Positions 1 through 12,731 of a DNA stretch of 59,977 nt are shown one piece after another (the stretch's first letter is position 1; every line of letters starts with the position of its first letter). The notes below the pieces were generated by a model. It was not told where the DNA came from. It ran no database searches and worked only from the letters and a program-made list of their open reading frames with translations. The translations under genes were made by a program, and so were the position numbers. Origin of the DNA: a virus (Duplodnaviria > Caudoviricetes); the IMG/VR virus record IMGVR_UViG_3300031949_000040, positions 1-59,977 of that record; one strand, written 5' to 3'.

Positions 1-147
1 TCACCGAAATAGAAAAAACGTTGGCTTATTTCTGGACTTATGTAATGAACGATGGGGCGTGTGAATAGTGCCAGCATCTACCGTAACCGTCGCCCAAATA
101 TGCACCGCCATAGACGCCACGCTCGGCGCGGCTCTTGTCGCCTCCGG
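1..147. repeat. Terminal direct repeat, left copy (147 bp; circular assembly overlap)
   Basis: 1-147 equals 59831-59977 except C127 vs A59957. Confidence 0.95.
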
Positions 148-544
148 TGACCTGGTCGAGAGCCAAAACTATAACGAGCTAACCGAAGGAATGAACGATG
201 AAAAGGTGTTGCAGATTTACCCAGAGGAGCAAACGCCGGTCTCTGTTGGCTCCGGCGCCCAAAAACTAACCTTTGGCTCTACGCCGTTTATTGACGAAGA
301 GATTGTCATTCACGCCGATTACTACGGCCGCCAGCGGTCACACATTGGCGAGGATATGGCCCAACTTGTTAGCGGCATTGACGCGATCAGGGTCAATCTC
401 AAAACGCAGAATTGCCCTAATCCATTTGGGCTAACGGGCATTGCTAATTTTCAATGGTCATGGCGGCGCACGGTGTTTGAGTATGGCGGGCCGGAGCTTA
501 AGTATATTGGGGCAAGGTTTAGGTTGGTATTGAGGACGTTCTAA
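68..544 (+). CDS. Putative tail terminator/tail completion protein
   Basis: 158 aa, GTG start; follows the HK97-gp10-like gene across the origin and precedes the major tail gene; positional inference. Confidence 0.6.
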   Translation: MPASTVTVAQICTAIDATLGAALVASGDLVESQNYNELTEGMNDEKVLQIYPEEQTPVSVGSGAQKLTFGSTPFIDEEIVIHADYYGRQRSHIGEDMAQLVSGIDAIRVNLKTQNCPNPFGLTGIANFQWSWRRTVFEYGGPELKYIGARFRLVLRTF

Positions 545-1014
545 TGAATGAAGAAATAAAAACACTGGTAACTATTATCAATCATCGTGCTCAAGTTGCG
601 GCCCGGCTTCGAGAATTGGCGCAACAACTAGAGAAGCGGGCAAACCTACACGACTTATCAAAGTTCAAACTCGATGAGCTTGATGGGTACGTCAAGCTAA
701 ATGTTTCCCGTAGGTTTCCGGGTGAGTCTCCCATTCCGTATGATTCGCCAGAGTACAAAGCAATACTCGAAAGCAATAAAAGCCCTCTTGAGCTTCATTT
801 TGCCAGAAATAGGCATCATCCCGAATTTCACACCAATGGCGTTAGCGACATGGCGCTCATTGATTTTATTGAAATGGTAGTTGACTGGCTTGCTGCTACT
901 GAGGCTTACGGCACTCCATTTAGGCAAGGTCTGGAAAAGCAAACGGGTTTGTATAACCTGCAACCAGACCACCTATACCTAATTGACTTAATAGCACGGC
1001 ACTTTGGAGAGTAG
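544..1014 (+). CDS. DUF5662-like HD-type phage protein
   Basis: HDLSKF, HFARNRHHPE and EMVVDW motifs typical of this family. Confidence 0.6.
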   Translation: MNEEIKTLVTIINHRAQVAARLRELAQQLEKRANLHDLSKFKLDELDGYVKLNVSRRFPGESPIPYDSPEYKAILESNKSPLELHFARNRHHPEFHTNGVSDMALIDFIEMVVDWLAATEAYGTPFRQGLEKQTGLYNLQPDHLYLIDLIARHFGE

Positions 1015-1016
1015 CT

Positions 1017-1355
1017 ATGTATCGAATGGTCAGACACACCCCGCTCTCCAGCGGTCACAAATACGGCGACATTATCAGGGATGGCGAGCTATCACCCGCC
1101 ACAATTCAAAAGTTTCTGGCGAGTGGGACGTTGGTTCGCGTCTCTACGCCGCCGCTATCCGAACTGCCCCAATGGGAGAAACGGCCCGAGCTGGCTGCGC
1201 TGGCTCGGGCGAATGTCATTACTATAGAGGACTTAATTCGCGCCAACGAAACCGAACTGGCAAAGGCGATCAGAAAATCAGTACGCACCATCCGGCAATG
1301 GAAAGACGAGGTAATGGTATGGCTAAATCCTGAACCACCTAAAGAAAACGGCTGA
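1017..1355 (+). CDS. Hypothetical protein with C-terminal helix-hairpin-helix-like segment
   Basis: ANVITIEDLIRANETELAKAIRKS pattern; in the late operon. Confidence 0.45.
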   Translation: MYRMVRHTPLSSGHKYGDIIRDGELSPATIQKFLASGTLVRVSTPPLSELPQWEKRPELAALARANVITIEDLIRANETELAKAIRKSVRTIRQWKDEVMVWLNPEPPKENG

Positions 1356-1403
1356 GATTAAATTAACTAAGTTTCTTGTATAGAAATATGGAGGTTTTAA
1401 GAA

Positions 1404-1865
1404 ATGGCACAAACAACAGGAGCAGTTGCTCAAGCCTGCGGCAAGGTCTGGATCAGTACCGATGGGACGAGCTTTACCGATGTCAGCGGCGCAACCCAGA
1501 GCATTACACCGGGCGAGCAAACTAAAATCACCGGCGAAGCATATACCTTCGACGGTGAGACGCCTATTGTCAAGGGCGGCAAGCGCGAACCGATGGAGTC
1601 GGAAGTCGTCATTATTTATACCGAAACAGACGCCGAAGTGTATCAGGTTACACGAGCCATCTTTGAGGCAACGGGTTGCGGCGCGGCGTTTTACATTCGC
1701 TATAGCCCACGCGGGGGCAATGCCGATGATGAGCAGTTGACCAGCGGCGCGGGGACGCTGACATCGTTCACCTATCCACCAGCAGACGCCAGCGCCGGTG
1801 GGCCAATCCTGGGCGGCTTCACTGTGCGGCATCCTGGATTTACTACCACAATCATTGCGTCATAA
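1404..1865 (+). CDS. Major tail (tube) protein
   Basis: 153 aa, Thr/Gly-rich, GGAGG RBS; directly upstream of the frameshifted chaperone pair. Confidence 0.75.
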   Translation: MAQTTGAVAQACGKVWISTDGTSFTDVSGATQSITPGEQTKITGEAYTFDGETPIVKGGKREPMESEVVIIYTETDAEVYQVTRAIFEATGCGAAFYIRYSPRGGNADDEQLTSGAGTLTSFTYPPADASAGGPILGGFTVRHPGFTTTIIAS

Positions 1866-1873
1866 GGTGAGCT

Positions 1874-2167
1874 ATGAGCAAGAATGAATTACCTGGAAAG
1901 GGCAATGGGGCCACAGCCCCGACTGTAACCATTGAACTGGATATGGACAACTTCACCTGGGGCGATTTGGAGGATATTGAGAGCCAGTCACCGACGAAGG
2001 TCCGGCAAGCAATGCAAAAATTCGCAAGCATTGAAGGTGTAGCCAAAGAGGAAATGAGCGAATATCTGCGTCGGCTGTCCCTGCGCCAGATGAAGGAAAT
2101 CAGCGCCGAATTTATGAAGGCAATCCAAAGCCTGAGTAATCCAACGGGCGCGAACCAAAAAAACTAG
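1874..2167 (+). CDS. Tail assembly chaperone (G-like)
   Basis: Follows the major tail gene; ends CAA AAA AAC TAG with slippery A AAA AAC. Confidence 0.8.
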   Translation: MSKNELPGKGNGATAPTVTIELDMDNFTWGDLEDIESQSPTKVRQAMQKFASIEGVAKEEMSEYLRRLSLRQMKEISAEFMKAIQSLSNPTGANQKN

Positions 2168-2370
2168 AGATGCGCTTGGCCGAGTATTTAGGCGCAAAAA
2201 CAGGCCAAGCGCCTGGTGAGTACCTGAAATTTTATTTGCGAAGGTTGTACGGTTGCACTCCAAGCGAACTTGCAGAACAAAAAGGCGAGTTTTTCTTTGA
2301 GATGCTTTGCGATCTGAAGTGTGAATCCTGGGAGCGCCGCACCGCCCATTTCCGCCAATCGCTTCATTAA
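2158..2370 (+). CDS. Tail assembly chaperone T segment (-1 frameshift extension, GT-like)
   Basis: The -1 frame is open from the slippery site through the ATG at 2170 to the stop at 2370; contains YGCTPSEL. Confidence 0.75.
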   Translation, partial: KKLEMRLAEYLGAKTGQAPGEYLKFYLRRLYGCTPSELAEQKGEFFFEMLCDLKCESWERRTAHFRQSLH

Positions 2371-2373
2371 TTA

Positions 2374-2391
2374 CCGCCATTGCCCTGGCGT
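2374..2391. repeat. Left arm of an 18-bp perfect inverted repeat bounding the RAMP/array cassette
   Basis: CCGCCATTGCCCTGGCGT is the reverse complement of 4546-4563. Confidence 0.85.
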
Positions 2392-2392
2392 A

Positions 2393-2430
2393 GTTAAAAA
2401 GAGGGGCACTTGATAGTGCCCCTCTTTAAC
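2393..2430 (-). terminator. Intrinsic terminator ending array 1 (possibly bidirectional)
   Basis: Stem AAAGAGGGGCACT/AGTGCCCCTCTTT with a 4-nt loop; T-run on the minus strand. Confidence 0.8.
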
Positions 2431-2560
2431 CTTGCCTTGCCCTGCCAGACCTTACCTAACCCGACCAAACCTAACCTCACCGGACCGGACCGGACCTCAC
2501 CCCACCACACCCGACCGTACCCCACCAGACCTAACCTCACCGCACCCTTACCACAAGGTT
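2429..2560 (-). ncRNA. GGY-NN pentamer array 1 (putative VIPR-type guide RNA)
   Basis: On the minus strand: leader TAACCTTGTGGTAAGGGT, then 23 exact NN-GGY units (25 GGY in total), then the terminator; starts at the HNH stop codon. Confidence 0.85.
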
Positions 2561-2825
2561 ATTTCATAAATGCGTGTCTGTTTTTATGGCAATCGTGACA
2601 CAAGGTCTTTAAGTTGCTTGGGTGGTTCGTTCCACCTTCGCTTAGTTCAAGCACATGATGACAATGGGTTTTTTCATAGGCGAATTGAGTAAAGCAATAC
2701 TGACAAATGCCCAAGTCTCTTTGGTAGACCCACTGCTTAAGCGGTTTCCAAATGTCATCAGGGAGCCGGGAATACCATAAAGCCCTTAATCCTGGGAGTT
2801 CTGCAACAGAAAAATACTTGCTCAA
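2559..2825 (-). CDS. Small HNH endonuclease
   Basis: RD..CQYC, CHHVLELSEGGTNHPSNLKTLCHDCH. Confidence 0.9.
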   Translation of the reverse strand: MSKYFSVAELPGLRALWYSRLPDDIWKPLKQWVYQRDLGICQYCFTQFAYEKTHCHHVLELSEGGTNHPSNLKTLCHDCHKNRHAFMK

Positions 2826-3403
2826 ATCTTGCAGACCTCAAACTTAGTGACCATAAACCGGCCAAACTTGGGGCGAAAGTCTCCAATGCCAGAGGTACGA
2901 CCAGCCAGAATCAAGACCTCATTAACCACGTTGGCGGGTATCTGGTCATCCAAAACGGTAATCTCAAAGTCCAGTTTCCACCCTGGCTTAAAGCAAGGCC
3001 GAATCCGCACCACTCGCGCACGCTGAACAACGGCGGGCCTGACATCCAAGTAAAGCGGCTTATCAGCGTCAGCGTCAAGATCATCAGGGGCTTTGATACC
3101 GTGCAAGATTTCATCAGGGCTACAAAAGACATTACCCTTAAACAATTGGGCGTAGGTCTTACCTCTAGCGCCCTGGATTTTGTAGCCAGCCGATGCCTTG
3201 ACCATTGCCCCATCAAAATGGATGGCGGGTTGATAAACTTCGCCGTCGGGATTGATGTAAAGATGCTCTCTCCATTCCTGGCTGTAGTCCTTTTCACCTG
3301 TCCTTTTCTTGCCGCCTTTGCTCAAGTCGGCAAAATCAGGTAGTGGGTACTTGTGTTGCAACAGTGGGGCAACACCTGCGACCGAACAATTAACAGTGTA
3401 CAT
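2822..3403 (-). CDS. Stand-alone RAMP/Cas7-like RNA-binding protein (putative Vipr)
   Basis: N-terminal GVAPLLQH, VYQPAIHFDGAM, RIRPCF..W.LDF.I and a C-terminal Gly-rich loop AGRTSGIGDFRPKFGRF; adjacent to the GGY-NN arrays. Confidence 0.75.
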   Translation of the reverse strand: MYTVNCSVAGVAPLLQHKYPLPDFADLSKGGKKRTGEKDYSQEWREHLYINPDGEVYQPAIHFDGAMVKASAGYKIQGARGKTYAQLFKGNVFCSPDEILHGIKAPDDLDADADKPLYLDVRPAVVQRARVVRIRPCFKPGWKLDFEITVLDDQIPANVVNEVLILAGRTSGIGDFRPKFGRFMVTKFEVCKI

Positions 3404-3435
3404 AATTCTTTTCCTTTCTAATTTGAAATTGGGTT

Positions 3436-3465
3436 AAAGGGGAGCAAGGCGCTCCCCTTTTTTTA
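3436..3465. terminator. Hairpin between the accessory ORFs and the RAMP gene
   Basis: AAAGGGGAGC/GCTCCCCTTT stem; T-run on the plus strand. Confidence 0.6.
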
Positions 3466-3717
3466 TTCGCCGCTTTCTGACCGATCCCAAGCCTCACTAG
3501 CCGTGGCTTCAAAGTCGGACAGGTCGGCTTCGGGTTGGATCAGTTCTTGAAGTATCTCTTTAGTCGCCAACAGATGCGTCTTGGCCGCCACACGGTCAAC
3601 CCGACAAGCGCCAATGTAAAAGACTGAAAGCATTTGCCGGTTGTCGGCAATGTGGGTCAAAAAAGCCTCATACTCCAATTCGTCAAAGGCAAGACTAACA
3701 GTGTAGGTGGCGGCCAT
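3463..3717 (-). CDS. Hypothetical acidic protein (cassette accessory)
   Basis: 84 aa; start overlaps the upstream stop. Confidence 0.65.
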   Translation of the reverse strand: MAATYTVSLAFDELEYEAFLTHIADNRQMLSVFYIGACRVDRVAAKTHLLATKEILQELIQPEADLSDFEATASEAWDRSESGE

Positions 3718-4010
3718 TAAAGCACCTCCAGGACACCGACAAATTCACCACTGGCGTTAATGAGGATGCTTTGAGAGGCGTAGTTAAAGCCCTTGCGCGG
3801 CAAGCTAGCGGAGCGGCTTTTGCTAACTTTGATTTCTTGCCGCTTGGCAATCGGTTGGGCCATCGAGCGGAGCTTTGATTCTTGCTTGGGGGTTAGGCGC
3901 TCATAAGGGAATGAGCGCTCTTTGCCGCTGCGGGTGGTCACGAGGACGCGGCCAATCATCAATCGGACGTTGCTAATAAAACGGGTCTGTGGTAATCTAC
4001 ACTTAGCCAT
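3717..4010 (-). CDS. Hypothetical basic protein (cassette accessory)
   Basis: 97 aa; AAAGGTGAG RBS; first gene after the leftward promoter. Confidence 0.65.
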   Translation of the reverse strand: MAKCRLPQTRFISNVRLMIGRVLVTTRSGKERSFPYERLTPKQESKLRSMAQPIAKRQEIKVSKSRSASLPRKGFNYASQSILINASGEFVGVLEVL

Positions 4011-4090
4011 TGGAGAAACTCACCTTTCTTTGATGGTTAGAGCCGTTCGATTGTTTCCGCAATCGGGCGGCTCGTTTGATTTATGACTAC

Positions 4091-4119
4091 AGTATACCAT
4101 ACTTATATTTACCAGTCAA
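4091..4119 (-). promoter_or_regulatory. Sigma70-type promoter for the RAMP/HNH/array 1 operon
   Basis: TTGACT-17 bp-TATACT with an extended TG. Confidence 0.8.
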
Positions 4120-4162
4120 TACTACTAACCTTAAAATATTATAAATATGTCTTGGTATGTAC

Positions 4163-4192
4163 TTGACAAGACCGACGCACTTGGTTTATAAT
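4163..4192 (+). promoter_or_regulatory. Sigma70-type promoter for the RHH gene and array 2 (leaderless)
   Basis: TTGACA-18 bp-TATAAT; ATG 6 bp downstream at 4199. Confidence 0.8.
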
Positions 4193-4198
4193 GGGTAT

Positions 4199-4366
4199 AT
4201 GAAAACCGAAGTTAAAGACGTCCAAGAAAAATACACGTCCTATACTTTCAAAGCGCCTAGCGATTTGCTTGCCAGGGTTAAAGATAAAGCGGGCTTGATT
4301 CCAGTGAGTGCCATTATCCGGCGCTTGTTGGAAAAATGGCTTGCTGGCGAAGTAAACCTCGATTGA
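4199..4366 (+). CDS. Ribbon-helix-helix (Arc/CopG-like) regulator
   Basis: YTFKAPSDLLARVK...VSAIIRRLLEKWL. Confidence 0.75.
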   Translation: MKTEVKDVQEKYTSYTFKAPSDLLARVKDKAGLIPVSAIIRRLLEKWLAGEVNLD

Positions 4367-4467
4367 TAACCTTTGTGGTAAGGGTATGGTAAGGGTTTGG
4401 AGGGGCGTGGTTTGGCTAGGTCAGGTGTGGTTTGGAGGGGCGTGGTATGGTTCGGTATGGCAAGGAC
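4367..4467 (+). ncRNA. GGY-NN pentamer array 2 (putative VIPR-type guide RNA)
   Basis: Leader TAACCTTTGTGGTAAGGGT shared with array 1; 18 GG(T/C/A) units at 5-nt (twice 6-nt) spacing; starts at the RHH stop. Confidence 0.8.
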
Positions 4468-4504
4468 GTAAAGAGCTATCTTTCGGGGTAGCTCTTTACT
4501 TTTT
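4468..4504 (+). terminator. Intrinsic terminator ending array 2
   Basis: GTAAAGAGCTATC/GGTAGCTCTTTAC stem followed by TTTTT. Confidence 0.85.
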
Positions 4505-4545
4505 GAGCGTTCCTGATACAATTAACATAACTCAATAAGCACGAA

Positions 4546-4606
4546 ACGCCAGGGCAATGGCGGGTGAAAGTTATTTTATGACTTTCACCCCCCATTGCCC
4601 TTTTTT
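4546..4606 (+). promoter_or_regulatory. Right arm of the 18-bp inverted repeat, overlapping a terminator/attenuator-like hairpin upstream of the tape-measure gene
   Basis: AGGGCAATGGCGGGTGAAAGT pairs with ACTTTCACCCCCCATTGCCCT, followed by a T-run. Confidence 0.65.
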
Positions 4607-4655
4607 GTTCCGGGCGGGTGATGGTCACATCACCCGTTTTTTATTTGGGGCAGGT

Positions 4656-7600
4656 ATGAGCAACGTAATTGAAATTGTCATAAAGCAATCTTCCAGCGGC
4701 AACGCCATTCACGACGCCTCTAAAGCTCTTGGCGGCCTTTCCGGTGCAGCCGGCGGTGCTATCGGCAGCCTCGGTAAATTCGGCGGCGCTCTGGGCAATA
4801 TGGCGACGATTGCTGGCGGCATTGTGGCCGCCAACCTCTTCGGCAAAATCGCCGAGGGTATTTCGAGCTTTGTCACCACGGGCCTGAACGCCGTTGGCAG
4901 CAGCCAGCAGCTTGAAACATCGCTCAAGTCACTGCTCACTGCCAATAATATGTATGAGCAGTCTACCGAGACGGTGACGCAGGCTGTGACCAATCAAATA
5001 ATGTCACAGGATGAATATGGGCAAAAGCTCGACGAGCTTAACGCCAAGCTCGTGACCCAGCGAGCGACCTATCAGGAACAGCAGGAGCGCATCCGGCAGC
5101 TTACCGAGCAATACGGTGAAAATGGCCTGGTGGTCATCAAAAACAAGGCGCAACACGAACAACTGGCGATTGCCATTCGAGGGACAGAGCAGGACATAGC
5201 CAGCCTTGCTACAACCGAAACCAAGCTCAGTACCAGTACTGAAACGGCCTGGCATCAGGTAATGAGCCAAACCGAGGCAATGAAGATTGCCAAAAAGGAA
5301 ACGGCGAATTTGCTTGAGTTTGTTTCAAGACTTGCGGTTGTTTCCCCCTTCGAAACTGAAGATGTCGAGATGACCACCAAGTACGCAGTGGCTGCTGGCC
5401 TGGGTCTGGACCAGACTAAGCAGTTTGTACCAGCCTTTCTCGATTTGGCGGCTTCGGTGGGCATCACGTCCGACTCGCTGGGCTTCGCTGCCGACCAACT
5501 CTTTCAGGTTCGCAAAATCGGTAAGTTGACTGAAATAGACTTACGCCAGTTACGACGGCTGGGTATTGACCTGGGCAAGATCATCGGCGTTGAAATGGGA
5601 ATGAGCGTCTCGGAATTTAACGAAAAGGCCGGGGAAAGCCCTGAGATCTTTGATGAGCTTTTTGATGCCGTTACCCGCTTTTCGGCCAACACATTCGCCG
5701 GCACATCGAAGGAAATGGCACTGTCGGTCAAGGGGCTACAGTCTACCATCTCGGATGTGTTCGTTATCGGCTCACGCACGTTTTTGCGTCCACTCGTCGA
5801 TGCCTTTACGCCGGCCATTGCGGGCATAGTCGGCAAGCTGAGTGATTTCGTTTTGGGCGGTGAGATGAAGAGCCTGGGCGATGATATGGCTAAAACCCTG
5901 ATGGGTGGAATTGCCAAATTCCAAAAGAGCGGCGCGGGCGGCCTGTTTGCCTCGTTGGGTTTCGAGGGCGGGGCGCTGTTTTTCAAGAAACTGTCCAAGC
6001 TAATGACTATGATAACCGGCGACGCTGGCACATTGGCAGGCACTATCAAGGGGGTTTTGGGCGGGGCATTTGGATGGTTGCAATCAAATATGTTCCCTAT
6101 CCTGTCTAAGGGTATCCAATTTGTCATTGATGGCTTTCAGACTTTTCGAGGCGTATTGCTTGATGTGGGTACTGTTGTGGGGGATGTCGTTAAAAAAGTA
6201 ACGGGTGCTTTTGAGCGGTTTGGCTTTAGAGGTGCGGCGATTAGCATACTGGGCCAATTGGGATTAGAGCCAAGCCAAATTGCCACCGTACTACAGACTA
6301 TGGATCAGATGGTATCTAATGTTACTGGCGCCATTGACAAAATAACGGGTGCTTTTGATAGATTTGGGGTCAGAGGGGCAGCGGTTAGCATACTGGGGAT
6401 ACTAGGTTTAGAGCCAGAAACTATTGCCACGGTCCTGTCTATTACTGACCAAATAGTATCCTTTGTATCATCCTTTGTTTCTCAGGTTGGCGGCTTTCTT
6501 GGCTCTTTATCATTCGATGAAATTATTGGAGCATTTACGGGAATAGGAATTGCTGTGGGGGCAATTGTAGCTAGTGGCATACTCACTGCTTTAGTTGCTG
6601 GCTTAATGTCTCTACTCACACCAATTAACCTTATCATTGTCGGAGCAGCTTTACTAGGTGCAGCATGGGCCGGGAATTGGGGCGGCATTCAGGATAAATT
6701 CTTTGCGGCCTGGGCCGTTATTCAACCGGCCTTGCAAGAACTTTGGAACTGGCTAGGAATTAACATCCCTATAGCCATTCAGACCGCCAGCGACTTTTGG
6801 ACGAACACGCTCTGGCCCGCCTTGCAACAGGTAGGCGCTTTTATTGTTGGGACGGTCATCCCGGCGATGGTGGGTTTATGGCAATGGTTGTCAGTTAATG
6901 TCCCAATGGCTGTCCAGACCTTGAGTGATATTTGGACGAATACCCTACTCCCCGGCTTTCAACGGGTCTGGGAAGCCATACAAACCAACCTCTTGCCACT
7001 TTTTCAACAACTGTTTACCTGGCTTGCCAGCGAGGGGCCGGGAATAGCCCAAGTTCTAGGGGATGCCTGGACTAATATCATCTTACCCGCTCTTGCCGCC
7101 GTTGGTGATTTTCTGCTCAATACTCTTTTCCCGGCGTGGGTTGAGCTTCAAGTCTGGCTGGCTGAGAATATCCCGGTAGCCATTCAAATACTTTCGGACA
7201 TCTGGACGAACACCCTATTACCGGCGATTACAAATGCCGGAACCTTTATCACCGGCACACTCATACCAACCTTGACCAATCTATGGACGTGGCTGAGTAC
7301 AAACATCGTTTCGGCCATTCAAACCGTCTCGGATATATGGACTACGATTTTTATGCCAGCCATTACAGGTGTGTGGACTTTTATCAGCACACTCGTAATT
7401 CCGCTGTTTCAATCCTTAACGAACCTGATGGGCGCAGTGCTGGTTGTGGCCCTAACTGCCCTGGCAGGCCTGTGGCAAAATGTTTTATTACCGGCCATTG
7501 AGGTTGTCTCAAATTTTATCGGCGCAACTCTTACCGTTGCGCTTAACGCACTGATTGCCTTGGTTGCCCAAAGACTCGGACCGACGATCAGGGTTTTTGC

Positions 7601-8984
7601 CGCAATCTGGCAGAGTGTACTTTTGCCTGGGCTTACTGCTGTAGGCAACATTGTTAAATCCGTGGTTGCTCCAGGTCTTGAGGATGTAGGAAAAAAGGCT
7701 GGTGTAATAGGTCCGATTTTGCAGGTTCTTGCCGATGTTGCTCTAAAGGCCGTTGCGAGTGGGTTTGATGCCATAGCCGGTGCTATTAAATCAGCAACGA
7801 ATTTATTTAATACTTTGGCTGATGCGGTCAAGAATTTTAAGTTACCCGCCGTACTTCAACCCGGCTCACCTCCGCCATTTGCCGTGGCCCTACAGGACAT
7901 AGCTAATGCGGCTGGCATGGCTGCTAATGCTATGGGCGGTTTTAGCCAGGCTACGATAGATAAACTGCTAGGTGTCAACCGTGCCATAGCCTCTAATCGC
8001 AATACTATCGGCGCGGCTCGTGATGACCTTGAGAAATTCTTTGACAAGTCAAATATCGGCGGCGTCAAAGGTAATTTTGCCTTAGTTCATCTGTCAAAGA
8101 TATTCAAAGAGCACAGCGCCGAAATCCTGACGGCAACGGATAGGGCAGCCAAGTTTAGGGAGATTGTCAGTCGAGTTGGGCCAAATTGGGAAAAGGCCAT
8201 GATTAGCGGCGAACAGTGGAAGACAGTTAATGCGGGCATCGGCCTGTTCATCAATTTCTTTGATAAGCGCAAAAAAGAGTTGATCCTGGCGCAGCAGCAG
8301 ATGTTTGTTCAGGCTGGTAAAACGGCGCTGAGTATCGGGATGAGGCTGAACGACATCGTGCAAGCCAGCGTAGACGTGCTTGATATGCGGGTAGAAACCT
8401 TGCAAGGGCTGGTTTCGTCCGGGATGGCCGAGGTCAACTTTCAGGGGATGATACTATCCCAGGCGCAGGCGCAGGAGCTGCTTAACGCGGCTTTAGCTGA
8501 GCAACTTGACATTCAAGACGATATTTTCCAACTTAAACAGAACGAGCAAAAGTTGGGCTTCCTGGAAAAGCAGCTTGATTTGATTGATACGCTGAACGCA
8601 GCCGGGTTGAATGTGCAAGATATTTTGGGCGGCATAACGCTAGGGCTTGACGCTTCCATTCCTGATATGATAGAGGCTACAAATCGGCTGGTTATGGCGA
8701 TGATCGAGCAGGTGAATAAAGATTTGCAGCTTGGTTCGCCATCGAAGCTGATGTTCAAAAAGTTTCAATTGGCCGGTATGGGGGCGGTCCAGGGCTTGCT
8801 ATCAATGAAGCCGATGCTGGAGAAGGCTATCGGGCCGGTGATTGACCCGTTGATGTCGGCGGGGAATGGGGCGGTGTCCAACCGCACAACTAACAACTAC
8901 TTTTCGCAGACAGTCAACACGCGAGCCGAAAGCTCGACAGTGATTGGCGATTTCAGAACGATGCAGATGCTGCTAGGGGCGTAG
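4656..8984 (+). CDS. Tail tape measure protein
   Basis: ~1440 aa; SPFE tape-measure motif and Trp-periodic helical repeats; start moved to MSNVIEIVI (the ORF track gives 4557). Confidence 0.92.
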   Translation: MSNVIEIVIKQSSSGNAIHDASKALGGLSGAAGGAIGSLGKFGGALGNMATIAGGIVAANLFGKIAEGISSFVTTGLNAVGSSQQLETSLKSLLTANNMYEQSTETVTQAVTNQIMSQDEYGQKLDELNAKLVTQRATYQEQQERIRQLTEQYGENGLVVIKNKAQHEQLAIAIRGTEQDIASLATTETKLSTSTETAWHQVMSQTEAMKIAKKETANLLEFVSRLAVVSPFETEDVEMTTKYAVAAGLGLDQTKQFVPAFLDLAASVGITSDSLGFAADQLFQVRKIGKLTEIDLRQLRRLGIDLGKIIGVEMGMSVSEFNEKAGESPEIFDELFDAVTRFSANTFAGTSKEMALSVKGLQSTISDVFVIGSRTFLRPLVDAFTPAIAGIVGKLSDFVLGGEMKSLGDDMAKTLMGGIAKFQKSGAGGLFASLGFEGGALFFKKLSKLMTMITGDAGTLAGTIKGVLGGAFGWLQSNMFPILSKGIQFVIDGFQTFRGVLLDVGTVVGDVVKKVTGAFERFGFRGAAISILGQLGLEPSQIATVLQTMDQMVSNVTGAIDKITGAFDRFGVRGAAVSILGILGLEPETIATVLSITDQIVSFVSSFVSQVGGFLGSLSFDEIIGAFTGIGIAVGAIVASGILTALVAGLMSLLTPINLIIVGAALLGAAWAGNWGGIQDKFFAAWAVIQPALQELWNWLGINIPIAIQTASDFWTNTLWPALQQVGAFIVGTVIPAMVGLWQWLSVNVPMAVQTLSDIWTNTLLPGFQRVWEAIQTNLLPLFQQLFTWLASEGPGIAQVLGDAWTNIILPALAAVGDFLLNTLFPAWVELQVWLAENIPVAIQILSDIWTNTLLPAITNAGTFITGTLIPTLTNLWTWLSTNIVSAIQTVSDIWTTIFMPAITGVWTFISTLVIPLFQSLTNLMGAVLVVALTALAGLWQNVLLPAIEVVSNFIGATLTVALNALIALVAQRLGPTIRVFAAIWQSVLLPGLTAVGNIVKSVVAPGLEDVGKKAGVIGPILQVLADVALKAVASGFDAIAGAIKSATNLFNTLADAVKNFKLPAVLQPGSPPPFAVALQDIANAAGMAANAMGGFSQATIDKLLGVNRAIASNRNTIGAARDDLEKFFDKSNIGGVKGNFALVHLSKIFKEHSAEILTATDRAAKFREIVSRVGPNWEKAMISGEQWKTVNAGIGLFINFFDKRKKELILAQQQMFVQAGKTALSIGMRLNDIVQASVDVLDMRVETLQGLVSSGMAEVNFQGMILSQAQAQELLNAALAEQLDIQDDIFQLKQNEQKLGFLEKQLDLIDTLNAAGLNVQDILGGITLGLDASIPDMIEATNRLVMAMIEQVNKDLQLGSPSKLMFKKFQLAGMGAVQGLLSMKPMLEKAIGPVIDPLMSAGNGAVSNRTTNNYFSQTVNTRAESSTVIGDFRTMQMLLGA

Positions 8985-11534
8985 ATGTGGAAAAGAATAC
9001 CTGTCATCCTGTTACTTTGGCTACTCTACCTTCCAGGCACTTTGTCCGCAATCCCCGTCACGGCCCAAGAGCCAAGCTTCAAAGTTTACCTTCCGTTAAT
9101 CTATTCAATCGACGATCCTTGTAGTGAGCCGATAATGTCAGACTGGAAAATTGTTGTACCCGAAAGCACCCTAAATCGCTGTCTCAACCCTTCCGCCGAA
9201 ACAACGGGGAATTTTGCGGCATTGGCTGGGACTACGGTTACACGGGTCACGAGTTTTCAGAATTATGGATTGAATAGCTATCGAGTGGAAACCAATGCCG
9301 ATAACGAGGGGGAAACATTCGACCTTTCGGCTTTAGCTAACGCCATTCACTATGTCACCGTGCGGGTGACGGGCACATTGCCCGCCTCGTGGGATTGGTC
9401 ACTCGATAATGCCACGTACACAAGCCCCACCTTACTAGAGGCCATTGATGGCACCTGGTCACTCTACGGTCTACAAGTTCCGGCGGCCCAAGCTAACGGC
9501 TCGGTATTGCTATACATTCGCCAGAACGGCTCCGGCTCCGGCGATTTCTACCTTGACGGTATCCAGGTAGAGGAAAAGAGCTATTACACAACCTACTGCG
9601 ACGGCACGCAGCCGGGCTGTGAGTGGAACGGGCCGGAACACGCCTCGACCAGCCAGCGCAGCGCCAGCAGCCGGGCGGGCGGTAGAGTGCAGGATTTACA
9701 GGATGATTATTACCTCAACATCGGCGGCATGATTGGCACGGGCGCATCACCGCAAACTCTGGGGCTGGATAGCTACGCCCTTTTACCGGGGGGCGAACTC
9801 AATAATATCAAAGTGGGTAGTCGGGTGTTCACCTTGACCGGCGTCATCACCGGTACCAGCCAAAGCGATTTTCACAGCAAAAAGCAGACGCTGCTTAGTG
9901 CTTTGATTGGTGGCTTGCAGCCGGTGCGGTTGCGCTACAACGGCGCTACCGTTCACAAGGAGATAGCCGCACATTATGAGGGTGGATTAGAGGGTGAGCT
10001 ATCCGCTTCGGATCCGTGCGCGTGGGAGCGAGTGGCCGTGCGCTTCCTTGCACCAAATCCCTACTGGTCAGAGATAGGCGAGAGCGCGGCGGCTTTGGAT
10101 ACGAATGATAGCGCCACGTTCACAGTAGTGGCGGCCAGGCTCAGAAGCACGGGGCAGTGGTCGGCGCTGGGGCCACCTAGTGCAAGTGGGACGTATACGG
10201 CGGTTAATGCCCTGGCCGAGGATGCAACTTATATCTACATCGGCGGTAATTTCCTTAACTTCGATAATATTGCGGCGGCTGATAGGATTGTTAGATACAA
10301 CAAGCAAACCGGCGTTTACTCAGCTATGGGAACGGGCACGAACGGGATTGTTCATGCGCTTGCCGTTGGGCCAGATGGCTCAGTGTACGCCGGTGGGTTT
10401 TTTACAGCAGCCGGGGGGGTAGCCAATACCGCTTATATTGCCAGGTGGGACGGTAGCGCCTGGAACGCACTAGGTACGGGGATGGATTTCACAGTTAACA
10501 ATCTTATCTTTGGCTTAGATGGCACACTCTATGCCGGAGGCGACTTCACTTTGGCCGGGGGGGTAGCCAATACCGTAAGGATTGCGGCCTGGAGCGGCAC
10601 AGCCTGGTCCGCGTTAAGCACTGGGGCGAATGGGATTGTTCGGGCTTTTGCCGTCGGGTTAGACGGCACGCTTTACGCAGCCGGGGCATTTACGACAATC
10701 GGCGGTGTGTCTGCCAACCGCATAGCCTCATGGAATGGGACGGCTTTCACCGCCCTGTCTAGTGGCTCAAGCGTTTCTATATTCGCTCTTGCTATCGACC
10801 CAGCCGGGCTACTGTACGTGGGTGGTTCATTTACGACAATTGGCAGCGTAGCGGCCAATCGTGTCGCATCCTGGAATGGTAGCACGTTTAACGCTTTGGG
10901 AGACGGGGCAAATACTGGCGTTGTTTCCGATATAGTTATTGGAGCGGATGGTACGCTCTACGCTGGGGGTACCTTTACAACAGCCGGGGGTATCACTTTA
11001 GCCGATAGGGTAGCACGTTGGAACGGTTATGCCTGGGCACATTTAGACATTGATTTACCAGGAAGTCCCGACATAACTGCTATCCTTGCCAGCAAATACG
11101 TTGACCCAGTAGTCGAGCAACAGTATTCACTATATCTCGGCTTTGACACCACCGGCGCCGGCACATTCGCCGGAAAGACCACCGTCGTCAATGACGGTAC
11201 TGCTCCCGCTTTCCCCAAAGTCATCTATGAGCGCAGCGGCGGCACGACCGCCATAATTGAGACGCTTAAAAATGAGACAGCGGGGTTGGAACTGCTATTC
11301 AATTATTCGCTTCTGAGCGGCGAACGATTGACGATTGACCTGACGCCAACCCAAAAGAGCATTGTCAGCAGCTTCTTTGGACAAAGACAGGATGCGATTT
11401 TGCCTAACAGTGATTTTGGCGAATGGTCATTGGCGCGGGGCAGTAGTGATGTGACTTCGTTTGTGGGGACAAGCGGTAGTCCGACGGTGACGGCCTATTT
11501 GTTGTGGAAAGATAACTACACCAGCCACGATTAA
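8985..11534 (+). CDS. Distal tail/baseplate protein with carbohydrate-binding-like N-terminus and beta-propeller insertion
   Basis: Follows the tape measure; FLAPNPYW Dit-like motif; repeated LYAGGxFTxAGG..IAxWxG blades; alternative start at 9135. Confidence 0.7.
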   Translation: MWKRIPVILLLWLLYLPGTLSAIPVTAQEPSFKVYLPLIYSIDDPCSEPIMSDWKIVVPESTLNRCLNPSAETTGNFAALAGTTVTRVTSFQNYGLNSYRVETNADNEGETFDLSALANAIHYVTVRVTGTLPASWDWSLDNATYTSPTLLEAIDGTWSLYGLQVPAAQANGSVLLYIRQNGSGSGDFYLDGIQVEEKSYYTTYCDGTQPGCEWNGPEHASTSQRSASSRAGGRVQDLQDDYYLNIGGMIGTGASPQTLGLDSYALLPGGELNNIKVGSRVFTLTGVITGTSQSDFHSKKQTLLSALIGGLQPVRLRYNGATVHKEIAAHYEGGLEGELSASDPCAWERVAVRFLAPNPYWSEIGESAAALDTNDSATFTVVAARLRSTGQWSALGPPSASGTYTAVNALAEDATYIYIGGNFLNFDNIAAADRIVRYNKQTGVYSAMGTGTNGIVHALAVGPDGSVYAGGFFTAAGGVANTAYIARWDGSAWNALGTGMDFTVNNLIFGLDGTLYAGGDFTLAGGVANTVRIAAWSGTAWSALSTGANGIVRAFAVGLDGTLYAAGAFTTIGGVSANRIASWNGTAFTALSSGSSVSIFALAIDPAGLLYVGGSFTTIGSVAANRVASWNGSTFNALGDGANTGVVSDIVIGADGTLYAGGTFTTAGGITLADRVARWNGYAWAHLDIDLPGSPDITAILASKYVDPVVEQQYSLYLGFDTTGAGTFAGKTTVVNDGTAPAFPKVIYERSGGTTAIIETLKNETAGLELLFNYSLLSGERLTIDLTPTQKSIVSSFFGQRQDAILPNSDFGEWSLARGSSDVTSFVGTSGSPTVTAYLLWKDNYTSHD

Positions 11535-11537
11535 GCT

Positions 11538-12731
11538 ATGTCCAAGAAGATTGCCCTATTCACCACATTTTTTGAGGCCGACAGCGGCTATTCCCTGATC
11601 ACCGTAGCTGAAACCCAAATCAGGATGCTGCTAGATCACGGCTATGAGCCAATTGTCCTGGTAGATGAGCGTTTCAAAAGCGACAAGGCGCTGTGGCAGC
11701 CGACTACCATAGATGTACGGCCGGTCATTCCTCCTCTTGGCGCGCCAGCCAATTCAATCCTGATAGCCCTGCACGAACACCTCGCCAACGTAGACGTGTG
11801 CATCACTCACGACATCGTTTTGTTGAATGATTACAAGGCACACGACCTGGCTATGAGGGAATACGCCAAATCGAGGGACAATCTGCTATGGTTGCACTGG
11901 CTTCATTCCTGCCCCAGCGGGCAGCGCGAAACACCACCCGGCTATCTCATCTATCCGAACGCCAGCGATAAGCCGCGAGTATGCCAGGTGTACGGCCTGT
12001 CCGGGCAGGAGCACCGGGTTGTACCTTGCCGGGCGGCGCACTCGATAGACCCGCTCAGCGTGTGGAACTATGACGCACTGACCCGCAGCCTGATAGGTAA
12101 ATTCAATTTGCTCGATGCGGAGGTGAGTGCGGTTTACCCAGTACGATTGGACCGCGGGAAACAGGTAGAGAAGGTCATTCGTCTATTGGCTGGGGGCAAG
12201 CGGGCGGGCTATGCGGTCAAGCTGCTGGTTATTGATTGGCAATCTACCGGGGCGCATTTCCAGAAGTACATTGACGAATTGATTGAACTGGCCTGGACGT
12301 TGGGAGTGGGTAACGATGTGGCCTTTACCAGCCGGTTGGATGATAGATGTAGTCAGGGTGTGCCACGGCACGTGGTTACTGAGCTGATGGACCTTAGTTC
12401 AATTTATATACATCCAAGCCGGGTTGAGACATACAGCTTGGTTGTGCACGAGGCGCTCTTGAGGGGTAAGTTGGTCTGTCTCAATCACGATTTCCCGGCT
12501 TTTCGGGAATTGTTTGGAGAGGCAGGCATCTACTTCGATTTCGGCTCAGATAGATTTGAGCGCACCTATGAGCCTGATATTCAATCATTTTTCGATGACG
12601 AAGCCCATAGATTGATTGCTGAATTGCGGCAAAACCGGGCGCTGATGGCTCAGACGAAGGCGCGGCGGGAGTGGGGGCCGGAGGTAATGTGGCGAGAATT
12701 TGAGCAACTATTTCACTTGAAACCTTGCTAA
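11538..12731 (+). CDS. Glycosyltransferase, GT-B (GT4-like)
   Basis: RLDRGK and YIHPSRVETYSLVVHEA motifs. Confidence 0.85.
   Translation: MSKKIALFTTFFEADSGYSLITVAETQIRMLLDHGYEPIVLVDERFKSDKALWQPTTIDVRPVIPPLGAPANSILIALHEHLANVDVCITHDIVLLNDYKAHDLAMREYAKSRDNLLWLHWLHSCPSGQRETPPGYLIYPNASDKPRVCQVYGLSGQEHRVVPCRAAHSIDPLSVWNYDALTRSLIGKFNLLDAEVSAVYPVRLDRGKQVEKVIRLLAGGKRAGYAVKLLVIDWQSTGAHFQKYIDELIELAWTLGVGNDVAFTSRLDDRCSQGVPRHVVTELMDLSSIYIHPSRVETYSLVVHEALLRGKLVCLNHDFPAFRELFGEAGIYFDFGSDRFERTYEPDIQSFFDDEAHRLIAELRQNRALMAQTKARREWGPEVMWREFEQLFHLKPC

What the first reader, a model, noticed from the sequence alone, without database searches (positions are those of the whole stretch)
2374..4563. Phage-encoded RAMP/Cas7-like protein with two GGY-NN pentamer RNA arrays: a minimal non-CRISPR RNA-guided system
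Seen: divergent consensus promoters drive (left) two small ORFs, a 193-aa protein with RAMP-like motifs and a C-terminal Gly loop, an HNH gene and array 1. To the right they drive an RHH gene and array 2. Both arrays begin at a stop codon with the leader TAACC(T)TTGTGGTAAGGGT and have constant GGY with variable NN at 5-nt period. Both end GGC-AA-GG followed by a TAAAGAG...CTCTTT terminator. There is no cas1/cas2 and no CRISPR repeat-spacer array. Established: Cas7-family proteins polymerise along RNA at a fixed period. From memory, a recently reported viral VIPR system has this GGY/NN architecture; verify before claiming novelty. Inference: one protomer binds each pentamer and presents NN for DNA pairing, for inter-phage interference.
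Basis: partly seen in the sequence, partly recalled or inferred. Interest (0 to 1): 0.95.

Follow-up and report, generated by a model that had tools for sequence, protein, structure and literature searches.

The report
Phage VIPR-HNH cassette aimed at siblings
This soil-phage insert is a member of the VIPR family of RNA-guided DNA binders published in 2026, here with an HNH nuclease. One of its guide RNAs spells a rival version of the tail gene next door, which suggests it attacks or converts closely related phages.

Summary
Window 2374-4563 holds a 193-aa protein, an 88-aa HNH gene and two tracts of NN-GG-Y pentamers, each with a shared leader and a hairpin terminator.

The protein is a sequence homologue of the solved SUSP1 Vipr protein (PDB 36pp, E 1.4e-8). 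It keeps the GGY-reading residues and folds like Cas7/Csm3. Of 38 relatives' loci, 37 carry same-strand pentamer tracts, and the 11 closest also carry the HNH gene.

Read by the published one-base-skip rule, the 23-unit guide beside HNH spells residues 4-26 of the adjacent tail-chaperone ORF (2170-2370) in codon register. It spells a variant of that gene, not the phage's own copy. The score was 68, against a shuffle maximum of 52.

The same holds at two other insertion sites: a syntenic sister phage (Dit-like tail gene) and a third phage (portal gene). The layout fits sibling exclusion or RNA-guided homing.

No target with 80% or more match was found. Expression and cutting are untested, and guide 2 has no target.

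This scan has noted the same pattern on other DNA at least eight times.

The parts
2822..3403 (-). vipr gene (193 aa), the RAMP/Cas7-like guide-binding protein
   Evidence: phmmer hit to PDB 36pp_D 'SUSP1 Vipr protein', E 1.4e-8, residues 4-185 against 4-187. phrog_4652 E 4.7e-20, no Pfam family. AlphaFold2 model pLDDT 81.7. Foldseek top hits are Cmr4, type VII Cas7 and Csm3, E 8e-8 to 1e-5. H17, R135, D175, R177 invariant and F176 90% or more conserved in 30 relatives.
2559..2825 (-). HNH nuclease gene (88 aa), the accessory (vap-like) gene; its start overlaps the vipr stop
   Evidence: PF01844 HNH E 1.9e-10. Homologue lies downstream of vipr in 11 of 38 IMG/VR loci, which are the 11 closest Vipr relatives. 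Zinc-binding Cys and catalytic His/Asn columns are invariant in the 11-sequence alignment.
2396..2561 (-). vrRNA1: conserved leader, 23 variable NN-GGY units, then a hairpin terminator
   Evidence: The leader motif is shared with array 2 and with vrRNA starts in clade relatives.
2179..2247 (+). The phage's own (mismatched) counterpart of the vrRNA1 target, in codon register inside ORF 2170-2370
   Evidence: Best six-frame match of the codon-decoded guide in the whole window: BLOSUM score 68, next best 29. In 200 unit-order shuffles the mean maximum was 34.9, sd 4.1, max 52. At nucleotide level 26 of 46 positions match.
2170..2370 (+). 66-aa ORF in the -1 frame after ORF 1874-2167, directly upstream of the tape measure gene; read as the T part of a G/GT tail assembly chaperone
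   Evidence: Position and frame. An A-AAA-AAC run at 2158-2164 is also present in the sister phage. Seven relatives among 1.84 billion representatives. The chaperone name is inferred from gene order; no family matched.
3463..3717 (-). 84-aa ORF of unknown function in the leftward operon
   Evidence: No match in Pfam, PHROGs, NCBIfam or PADLOC. No usable Atlas hit. No tblastn match in 38 relatives' loci.
3717..4010 (-). 97-aa ORF of unknown function, first gene of the leftward operon
   Evidence: No family match. No usable Atlas hit. No tblastn match in 38 relatives' loci.
4091..4192 (.). Divergent promoter region: minus-strand TTGACT-17-TATACT at 4119-4091, plus-strand TTGACA-18-TATAAT at 4163-4192
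   Evidence: Consensus scan only.
4199..4366 (+). Small ORF (55 aa from 4199; 69 aa from 4157), weakly RHH-like
   Evidence: RHH_1 E 0.014-0.026, below the cut-off. The sister phage has a clear 45-aa RHH gene (E 2.9e-5) just upstream of its vipr, but the two give no BLASTP alignment.
4367..4499 (+). vrRNA2: the same leader (its core duplicated), 14 variable units, hairpin terminator
   Evidence: No target was found.
2374..2391 (.). Left arm of an 18-nt perfect inverted repeat that brackets the cassette
   Evidence: the repeat finder pair I3, 100% complementary to 4546-4563.
4546..4563 (.). Right arm of the bracketing inverted repeat; also part of a local 24-nt hairpin at 4551-4601
   Evidence: the repeat finder pairs I3 and I1.
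11235..11302 (+). Site in the Dit-like minor tail gene (8985-11534) matched by the sister phage's HNH-adjacent guide
   Evidence: 36 of 46 NN positions match. Shuffle maxima: mean 25.8, sd 0.9, max 28.

Best explanation
The cassette is a VIPR system of the HNH-accessory kind, carried by an uncultured soil siphophage between its tail-chaperone and tape-measure genes.

**Published mechanism, inferred to apply here.** One Vipr protomer binds each YNNGG unit of a vrRNA. It buries GGY and presents NN. The filament reads double-stranded DNA as NN-x-NN-x, skipping one base per unit.

**Shown here in silico.** The 23-unit vrRNA next to HNH spells, in codon register, a variant allele of the flanking chaperone ORF. 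The phage's own allele mismatches at 20 of 46 positions.

**Inferred.**
- The complex binds that allele in closely related phages that share a cell.
- Binding blocks the rival's tail operon and/or lets HNH cut it.
- The result is exclusion of the sibling or copying of the cassette into it by repair.
- vrRNA2 has a different target that is still unknown.
For: **Membership of VIPR.**
- The protein hits the SUSP1 Vipr protein (PDB 36pp) at E 1.4e-8 over its full length.
- The residues reported to read GGY in SUSP1 (H17, R138, D177, W178, R179; passages) align to H17, R135, D175, F176 and R177. H17, R135, D175 and R177 are invariant and F176 is at least 90% conserved in 30 relatives.
- The predicted fold matches Cas7-family subunits.
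- 37 of 38 relatives' loci have same-strand runs of 5 or more units near vipr.
- HNH is conserved in 11 of 38 loci with its catalytic columns invariant.

**Target of vrRNA1.**
- The decoded guide scores 68 on ORF66 residues 4-26. The next best site scores 29, and 0 of 200 shuffles exceeded 52.
- NN matches run 26 of 46 on the phage's own allele, 30 of 46 on the sister phage's allele (0 of 60 shuffles reached 30) and 33 of 46 on a metagenome allele.
- By my own count, family member P0122 agrees with the decoded guide at 16 of 23 residues, against 12 of 23 for the phage's own protein.

**Same layout at two other sites.**
- L011 guide on the flanking Dit-like gene: score 78, z 13.1 and 10.6; 33 of 46 on its own allele and 36 of 46 on the window's allele.
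- L001 guide on the flanking SPP1-type portal gene: score 65 against a shuffle maximum of 49; 26 of 34 NN matches against a maximum of 24.

**Mobility.** The sister phage is syntenic with the window and has no cassette at the window's site, and the reverse also holds.
Against: - No site with 80% or more NN match (the papers' threshold) was found for vrRNA1 anywhere. The best is 33 of 46, or 72%.
- Four exact 10-unit patterns gave 0 hits in viral contigs, and one 12-unit pattern gave 0 hits in genome contigs.
- vrRNA2 has no match above shuffles in the window, the sister phage or the 38 loci.
- Only 3 of 6 distinct HNH-adjacent guides match a flanking gene. L003/L004, L007 and L008 do not within the DNA held.
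- Transcription, Vipr binding and HNH cutting are not shown.
- The paper describes its nuclease-bearing types as enriched in defence islands of cells. That differs from this phage setting, and the type could not be assigned without the supplements.
- At 23 units, the guide is longer than the 9-16 repeats stated for the characterised clades.
Confidence: 0.8

Rival explanations
1. Pure silencing or exclusion without homing. The Vipr-vrRNA1 filament sits on the sibling's chaperone gene and blocks transcription into its tape-measure and tail genes. HNH only degrades the rival genome or does something unrelated. The guide lies next to its own immune allele because selection keeps a weapon linked to its antidote.
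For: - Transcriptional silencing is the only activity shown for VIPR so far.
- The target lies in an essential late operon, just upstream of the tape measure gene.
- Guides in other VIPR clades also decode to genes 187-3557 nt away in their own loci (L035, L005, L031, L037; z 5.4-8.4). Close adjacency is therefore not universal.
Against: - In the three positive HNH-clade cases the target lies roughly 100-310 nt from the cassette edge, always in the convergent flanking gene.
- Homologous cassettes sit at different sites in syntenic phages, each with a guide that fits its own flank. This is what a guide-directed insertion would leave.
Confidence: 0.4
2. Self-regulation. vrRNA1 binds the phage's own chaperone gene through partial pairing, to tune late-operon transcription or to stop read-through into the antisense cassette.
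For: Own-allele matches are fairly high in the relatives: 33 of 46 in L011 and 26 of 34 in L001.
Against: - In the window the own-allele match is 26 of 46, no better than shuffled guides (mean maximum 25.6).
- Other alleles match better than the phage's own (30 and 33 of 46).
- At units 4 and 21 the carrier uses the other Leu/Arg codon family, while both comparison alleles use the guide's family.
- The paper reports that disturbing NN pairing abolishes silencing.
Confidence: 0.05
3. HNH is an ordinary protein-guided, free-standing homing endonuclease that happens to sit in the cassette. It has its own DNA specificity and no functional tie to Vipr.
For: - Small HNH genes are common selfish inserts in phage genomes; 37 PHROG families matched, mostly named HNH endonuclease.
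- No support was obtained for Vipr-HNH contact.
Against: - The protein is only 88 aa, essentially the HNH core plus about 25 residues, with no separate DNA-binding domain matched.
- It is conserved with vipr in all 11 closest loci, always between or before vrRNAs.
- Its start overlaps the vipr stop.
- The VIPR paper lists HNH among vap domains (figure S21 legend).
Confidence: 0.08

Closest known systems
VIPR type II systems of Escherichia phage SUSP1 and a Pseudomonas fulva prophage (bioRxiv 10.64898/2026.04.26.720920, 10.64898/2026.04.26.720927, 10.64898/2026.10.15.759431)
   Same: - Homologous Vipr protein (E 1.4e-8 to PDB 36pp) with the GGY-reading residues kept.
- vrRNAs built of YNNGG units.
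- Phage-borne, with no cas1/cas2 and no CRISPR array.
- Guides read coding DNA with the skipped base at the wobble position.
- Aimed at competing mobile elements.
   Different: - The accessory gene here is an HNH nuclease, not a DNA-binding vap1.
- The guide has 23 units, against 9-16.
- The conserved element is a 5' leader, and the 3' end is a plain intrinsic terminator rather than the pseudoknot tail described for SUSP1.
- GGA units occur.
- The target is a sibling allele of the gene next to the cassette, not a satellite or a prophage regulator.
Nuclease-bearing VIPR types (types III-V in 10.64898/2026.04.26.720920; HNH named in the figure S21 legend)
   Same: Vipr plus vrRNA plus a predicted nuclease accessory gene. 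Some of these systems encode a single vrRNA per transcription unit.
   Different: - The paper describes types III and V as enriched in cellular defence islands and as host immunity. This cassette sits inside a phage tail operon and points at the phage's own kin.
- The type could not be assigned, because the classification data are in supplements that were closed.
Free-standing HNH homing endonucleases of phages (intronless homing, marker exclusion; recalled from general knowledge, no call)
   Same: - A small nuclease gene inserted between essential conserved genes.
- The predicted target lies in the neighbouring gene of relatives that lack the insert.
- The carrier's own copy is divergent at the site.
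- The insert is absent from the syntenic site of a sister phage.
   Different: Specificity would come from a programmable guide RNA on a RAMP filament, not from the protein. Neither cutting nor homing is shown.
IscB/TnpB (OMEGA) transposon-encoded RNA-guided nucleases
   Same: - A selfish element that carries its own guide aimed at the sequence next to its insertion site (recalled).
- The best NCBIfam hit of the HNH protein is the HNH domain of IscB, E 2.4e-10.
   Different: - The score is 40 bits against a cut-off of 175, so only the HNH domain is shared.
- There is no RuvC domain, no omega RNA, no transposase and no contiguous guide.
Class 1 CRISPR-Cas backbone subunits (Cas7, Csm3, Cmr4)
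   Same: Same predicted fold, with TM 0.5-0.6 normalised to the query. Both polymerise along a guide at a fixed period.
   Different: - The period is 5 nt with 2 pairing bases, instead of 6 nt with 5.
- There is no adaptation module and no repeat-spacer array.

Membership tests
VIPR (Vipr + vrRNA + vap) | Protein homologous to an experimentally characterised Vipr | tested here: met
   phmmer against PDB: 36pp_D 'SUSP1 Vipr protein', E 1.4e-8, aligned over 4-185 of 193.
VIPR (Vipr + vrRNA + vap) | RAMP fold: RRM core, glycine-rich loop and thumb | tested here: met
   - Model pLDDT 81.7, pTM 0.77.
- 107 PDB chains at E 0.001 or better, led by Cmr4, type VII Cas7 and Csm3.
- C-terminal G-x-G-D-F-R-P-x-F-G-R-F is nearly invariant.
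- The thumb was judged only through the aligned R135, not delineated in the model.
VIPR (Vipr + vrRNA + vap) | Residues that read G1, G2 and Y3 in SUSP1 Vipr (H17, R138, D177, W178, R179) | tested here: met
   They align to H17, R135, D175, F176 (Trp replaced by Phe) and R177 (positions counted by hand). H17, R135, D175 and R177 are invariant and F176 is 90% or more conserved in alignment A1. Residue roles come from the passages.
VIPR (Vipr + vrRNA + vap) | Adjacent non-coding tracts of YNNGG units with constant GGY and variable NN | tested here: met
   - Two tracts, of 24 and 15 consecutive units; 36 of 39 units are GGY and 3 are GGA.
- 0.12 such runs expected by shuffling.
- 37 of 38 relatives' loci have such runs, all on the vipr strand, with different NN content.
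VIPR (Vipr + vrRNA + vap) | Accessory (vap) gene conserved beside vipr | tested here: met
   HNH gene in 11 of 38 loci, which are the 11 closest relatives. Catalytic columns are invariant.
VIPR (Vipr + vrRNA + vap) | Target recognition by the one-base-skip rule, with the skip at the codon wobble position | tested here: met
   In silico only. Under this rule vrRNA1 decodes in frame to the chaperone family (score 68 against a shuffle maximum of 52). The L011 and L001 guides decode to their flanking genes. Binding was not measured.
VIPR (Vipr + vrRNA + vap) | vrRNAs are transcribed and co-purify with Vipr | not testable with these tools
   The only run holding the stretch is one DNA soil-metagenome run.
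VIPR (Vipr + vrRNA + vap) | Conserved structured 3' tail (a pseudoknot in the SUSP1 clade) | tested here: not met
   The 3' ends are intrinsic-terminator hairpins whose sequences differ between relatives. The conserved element is a 5' leader. The paper presents the pseudoknot as a property of one clade and describes other array architectures, so I do not count it as defining.
Free-standing homing endonuclease element | Insert absent from the syntenic site of a close relative | tested here: met
   The sister phage G001 has about 260 nt of unrelated intergenic DNA between its chaperone ORF and its tape-measure gene.
Free-standing homing endonuclease element | Nuclease cuts the insert-free allele near the insertion point, and repair copies the insert | not testable with these tools
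   No biochemical or genetic data. Contigs of the source run showed no insert-free joint.
CRISPR-Cas | Repeat-spacer array and a cas1/cas2 adaptation module | tested here: not met
   No PF01867 or PF09827 match in the record, with positive controls ringing. No such array by TRF.
IscB (OMEGA) RNA-guided nuclease | Full-length IscB architecture | tested here: not met
   NF040563 scored 40 bits against a cut-off of 175, and only profile positions 183-236 of 314 matched.

The most novel reading that the evidence does not exclude
The VIPR-HNH cassette is an RNA-programmed homing element. The HNH-adjacent vrRNA directs a Vipr filament to the insert-free allele of the neighbouring essential gene in a co-infecting sibling phage. 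HNH breaks that DNA, and repair from the carrier copies the cassette together with its immune flank. A change in the terminal guide lets the element colonise new sites. This would explain why homologous cassettes in syntenic phages sit after three different structural genes, each with a matching guide.
Probability: 0.3. Interest if true: 0.85.

Novelty: new member of a known kind. Interest (0 to 1): 0.55.

Why it matters
**The kind is already known.** VIPR was described in 2026, so this locus adds a member rather than a class.

**What it adds.** It gives a clean, statistically strong natural example in which a VIPR guide is aimed at the carrier phage's own kin, at the gene next to the cassette, and is paired with a nuclease. 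The held VIPR papers describe silencing of satellites, prophages and rival VIPR loci. They place the nuclease-bearing types in cellular defence.

**Checks on print.** The word 'homing' does not occur in the main text of 10.64898/2026.04.26.720920 or 10.64898/2026.10.15.759431. The other two held papers were not searched for it, and supplements were closed.

**If cutting and copying are shown.** It would be an RNA-guided gene drive among phages, and a compact programmable nuclease: about 280 aa of protein plus one short RNA, with no PAM requirement reported for the family.

**Repeated in this scan.** The scan has reported the same pattern on at least eight other genomes. This suggests a general property of the HNH clade, so a single bench test would settle many loci.

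Tried and rejected
**Target searches that found nothing.**
- Exact 10-unit patterns in viral contigs gave 0 hits each: vrRNA1 units 1-10 and 14-23, and vrRNA2 units 1-10 and 5-14.
- vrRNA1 units 6-17 in genome contigs gave 0 hits.
- vrRNA2 and the sister phage's four vipr-proximal guides gave nothing above shuffles in either complete phage.
- Decoding vrRNA2 as codons in both orientations gave nothing above shuffles in the window.

**Searches for kin of the flanking ORF.**
- The word-index protein search found only the ORF itself.
- tblastn of the phage collection gave no hit better than E 2.
- The 153-aa upstream protein found no kin in viral contigs.
- A profile of three alleles found only the sister phage in viral contigs, nothing in genome contigs and three metagenome loci. 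L043 and L044 carry the same allele; L045 is a weak partial hit.

**Expression.** No RNA holder was listed for the stretch; the one run is DNA and probably the source. Its contigs, laid on window 1-12000, showed no joint across the cassette and no variant over the target.

**Vipr-HNH contact.** The complex prediction gave no verdict (score 0.11, mark 0.32). This is no evidence either way.

**The two small ORFs (97 and 84 aa).** No family in four libraries, no usable Atlas hit on low-confidence models, and no tblastn match in the 38 relatives' loci.

**Other checks.**
- Rfam gave nothing at or near the gathering score; the only hits were hairpins resembling miRNA models.
- A bracketing inverted repeat like the window's was not found in L011 or L001.

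**Considered and dropped.**
- TRAP-like or CsrA-like protein-titrating RNAs were an early thought for 5-nt-period G-rich repeats. I dropped it once the Vipr homology appeared.
- A CRISPR reading was dropped because there is no array and no cas1/cas2.

**Limits on what I could see.**
- The type (I-VII) was not assigned, because classification and target tables are in supplements that were closed. Those files may already list this clade or its targets.
- What I saw of each paper:
  - 10.64898/2026.04.26.720920: outline, all of Results, Discussion, two Methods sections and passages.
  - 10.64898/2026.04.26.720927: outline and the first part of Results.
  - 10.64898/2026.10.15.759431: outline, sections 8 and 17, and a term search.
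  - 10.64898/2026.10.21.760802: passages only.

Full report
**What is there.** The window is a complete 59,977-base virus record, estimated 81% complete and linear. Between a 66-aa ORF (2170-2370) and the tape-measure gene lies a 2.2-kb block bracketed by an 18-nt perfect inverted repeat at 2374-2391 and 4546-4563. The tape-measure ORF spans 4557-8984, probably starts at 4656, and matches PHROG tape-measure families.

A minus-strand promoter-like site at 4119-4091 precedes, in order:
- a 97-aa ORF and an 84-aa ORF;
- a 193-aa ORF (2822-3403);
- an 88-aa HNH ORF (2559-2825), whose start overlaps the preceding stop;
- a tract of pentamers;
- a hairpin terminator.

A 12-of-12 consensus promoter on the plus strand (4163-4192) precedes a small, weakly RHH-like ORF, a second pentamer tract and a second terminator.

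**The arrays are real.**
- On its own strand, array 1 has 24 consecutive NN-GG-N units: 21 GGT and 3 GGC.
- Array 2 has 15 units: 8 GGT, 4 GGC and 3 GGA.
- No other run of 5 or more units exists in the window, and shuffles give 0.12 runs.
- Both tracts start right after a stop codon with the same leader of about 18 nt.
- In both, a one-base phase step follows the second unit.
- Both end GGC-AA-GG before a TAAAGAG...CTCTTT hairpin.
- Leaving out the leader units, vrRNA1 has 23 variable NN and vrRNA2 has 14.

**The protein is a Vipr.** It has no Pfam, NCBIfam or PADLOC family, and it belongs to phrog_4652, which has no known function.

Against PDB sequences it hits 36pp_D, 'SUSP1 Vipr protein', at E 1.4e-8 over residues 4-185. 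The cryo-EM preprint names H17, D177, R138, W178 and R179 as the contacts to the GGY bases (first part of Results). In the printed alignment these fall on H17, D175, R135, F176 and R177. H17, R135, D175 and R177 are invariant and F176 is at least 90% conserved in my alignment of 30 of the 120 listed relatives.

An AlphaFold2 model (pLDDT 81.7) finds Cmr4, type VII Cas7 and Csm3 chains at E 8e-8 to 1e-5. That structure library ends on 8 April 2026 and so lacks the VIPR entries.

**Relatives.** The protein search returned 319 proteins at E 0.001 or better among 484 candidates. A profile scan of IMG/VR gave 38 loci.
- 37 of the 38 have runs of 5 or more units, all on the vipr strand and within about 1.3 kb of the gene. 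L022 has none.
- tblastn finds the HNH gene downstream of vipr in 11 of the 38. These are exactly the 11 closest relatives.
- The zinc-binding cysteines and the His/Asn of the HNH motif are invariant among them.
- In this clade each vrRNA opens with a conserved motif around TTGTGG. Several vrRNAs lie head to tail between vipr and HNH, and often one more lies after HNH, ending in a terminator whose sequence is not conserved.

**It is in print.** Three held preprints describe VIPR.
- **The system:** a Vipr RAMP protein, vrRNAs of 9-16 YNNGG repeats with a 3' tail, and recognition of double-stranded DNA as NN-x-NN with the skipped base usually at the wobble position.
- **Its diversity and targets:** seven types, vap genes that include nucleases and an HNH domain, and targets on satellites, prophages and rival VIPR loci.

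A fourth preprint recovers VIPR arrays from language-model entropy.

**What vrRNA1 points at.** I scored each guide by the skip rule, as the third preprint does.

At nucleotide level the best site in the window for vrRNA1 is 2179-2246, inside the flanking ORF and in its reading frame. At 26 of 46 this is no better than shuffled guides. The same site scores 68. The next best site scores 29, and 200 unit-order shuffles give maxima of 34.9 on average (sd 4.1, max 52). The guide therefore spells a diverged version of residues 4-26 of this ORF.

The ORF lies in the -1 frame after a 97-aa ORF, behind an A-AAA-AAC run that the sister phage shares, and just before the tape-measure gene. By position I read it as the T part of a G/GT tail-assembly chaperone. 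No family model confirms that name.

A full HMMER pass over 1.84 billion representatives found seven relatives. By my count, the closest, P0122, agrees with the decoded guide at 16 of 23 residues, against 12 of 23 for the phage's own protein. Where I could fetch DNA:
- the sister phage's allele matches 30 of 46 (0 of 60 shuffles reached 30);
- a metagenome allele (L043, identical in L044) matches 33 of 46.

The carrier's own allele is the worst match of the three. At units 4 and 21 the carrier uses the other Leu/Arg codon family, while both comparison alleles use the guide's family. At units 16 and 20 it also differs from the guide, but the comparison alleles give no clear contrast.

**The same layout elsewhere.** L011 lies in a 60,033-base record (G001, 92% complete) that is syntenic with the window at 65-82% nucleotide identity.

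The G001 cassette:
- It consists of a promoter, a clear 45-aa RHH gene, vipr, four vrRNAs, HNH, a fifth vrRNA and a terminator.
- It sits after the Dit-like minor tail gene, not after the chaperone.
- At the window's insertion site G001 has about 260 nt of unrelated intergenic DNA.

The G001 guides:
- Its 23-unit HNH-adjacent guide decodes to the C-terminal part of that flanking tail gene: score 78, with z 13.1 in one test and 10.6 in another.
- That guide matches 33 of 46 on its own allele and 36 of 46 on the window's allele at 11235-11302. Shuffle maxima average 25.8 (sd 0.9).
- Its four vipr-proximal guides match nothing in either phage.

In L001 (67% Vipr identity) the 17-unit HNH-adjacent guide decodes to residues near the C-terminus of the flanking SPP1-type portal gene:
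- the score is 65 against shuffles of 33.4 on average (sd 4.1, max 49);
- 26 of 34 NN positions match, against a shuffle maximum of 24.

In all three cases the flanking gene converges on the cassette and ends at or within a few bases of the vrRNA terminator, and the matched site lies roughly 100-310 nt from the cassette edge.

The pattern is not universal.
- Among six distinct HNH-adjacent guides (window, L011, L001, L003 which equals L004, L007, L008), three show it and three do not within the DNA held.
- Five HNH-clade loci have no array after HNH.
- With a tolerant caller, 79 vrRNAs in the 38 loci gave five with z above 5 against a gene of their own locus: L011, L035, L005, L031 and L037, at distances of 187-3557 nt.

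**How it most likely works.**
- **Published:** Vipr protomers polymerise on the vrRNA, one per unit, and read DNA with a one-base skip.
- **Shown here in silico:** the HNH-adjacent guide encodes a non-self allele of the neighbouring essential virion gene, at three different insertion sites.
- **Inferred:** in a cell shared with a sibling phage, the filament binds the sibling's allele. Binding alone would block the late tail operon, and HNH may cut.

If the broken DNA is repaired from the carrier, the cassette and its mismatched flank would be copied. This is the logic of free-standing homing endonucleases, which I recall rather than tested.

I put 0.8 on 'VIPR member whose vrRNA1 is aimed at sibling alleles of the flanking gene'. 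Within that, I give about 0.4 to exclusion without copying and about 0.3 to true homing.

**Weak points.**
- No target with 80% or more match was found.
- vrRNA2 is unexplained.
- No RNA data exist.
- The complex prediction gave no verdict.
- The VIPR type is unassigned because the supplements were closed.

**Relation to earlier notes of this scan.** Follow-up reports on at least eight other genomes describe VIPR-HNH cassettes whose guides spell sibling alleles of flanking genes. They are unchecked AI notes and not independent evidence. My tests on the window, L011 and L001 were run here and agree with them.

Noticed in passing
window 2374-2391 and 4546-4563; 4551-4601: An 18-nt perfect inverted repeat brackets the whole cassette. 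Its right arm is also half of a local 24-nt hairpin, whose other arm (about 4589-4601) nearly repeats the left arm. One reading is that the cassette sits in the loop of a former intergenic hairpin. No comparable bracket was found in L011 or L001.
   Followed up: partly
window 2158-2164: An A-AAA-AAC run ends the 97-aa ORF, and the -1 frame stays open into the 66-aa ORF. The sister phage has the same run. This fits a programmed -1 frameshift of a G/GT tail chaperone.
   Followed up: partly
window 11235-11302: The sister phage's HNH-adjacent guide matches this site in the window's Dit-like tail gene at 36 of 46 NN positions, better than its own allele (33 of 46). The window phage may therefore be a near-target of its relative's VIPR.
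   Followed up: yes
L035 5271-5325; L005 4671-4750; L031 1735-1794; L037 5118-5182: vrRNAs of more distant VIPR loci that lack the clade's HNH homologue also decode to diverged copies of genes in their own loci (z 5.4-8.4, at 187-3557 nt). Such own-contig near-matches would fall below the 80% threshold used in the papers.
   Followed up: partly
window 2531-2561 (minus strand) and 4367-4397: In both vrRNAs the leader plus the first units are predicted to form a small 5' hairpin rich in G-U pairs. Covariation was not tested.
   Followed up: no
window 20947-21121: A tandem repeat of 51 nt, 3.4 copies, 91% matches. Not examined.
   Followed up: no
window 6195-6460: A 144-nt unit repeated 1.8 times inside the tape-measure gene.
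   Followed up: no
window 3436-3460: A 10-pair hairpin between the 84-aa ORF and vipr looks like a terminator on the plus strand only. On the minus-strand operon it would be an internal hairpin just before vipr.
   Followed up: no
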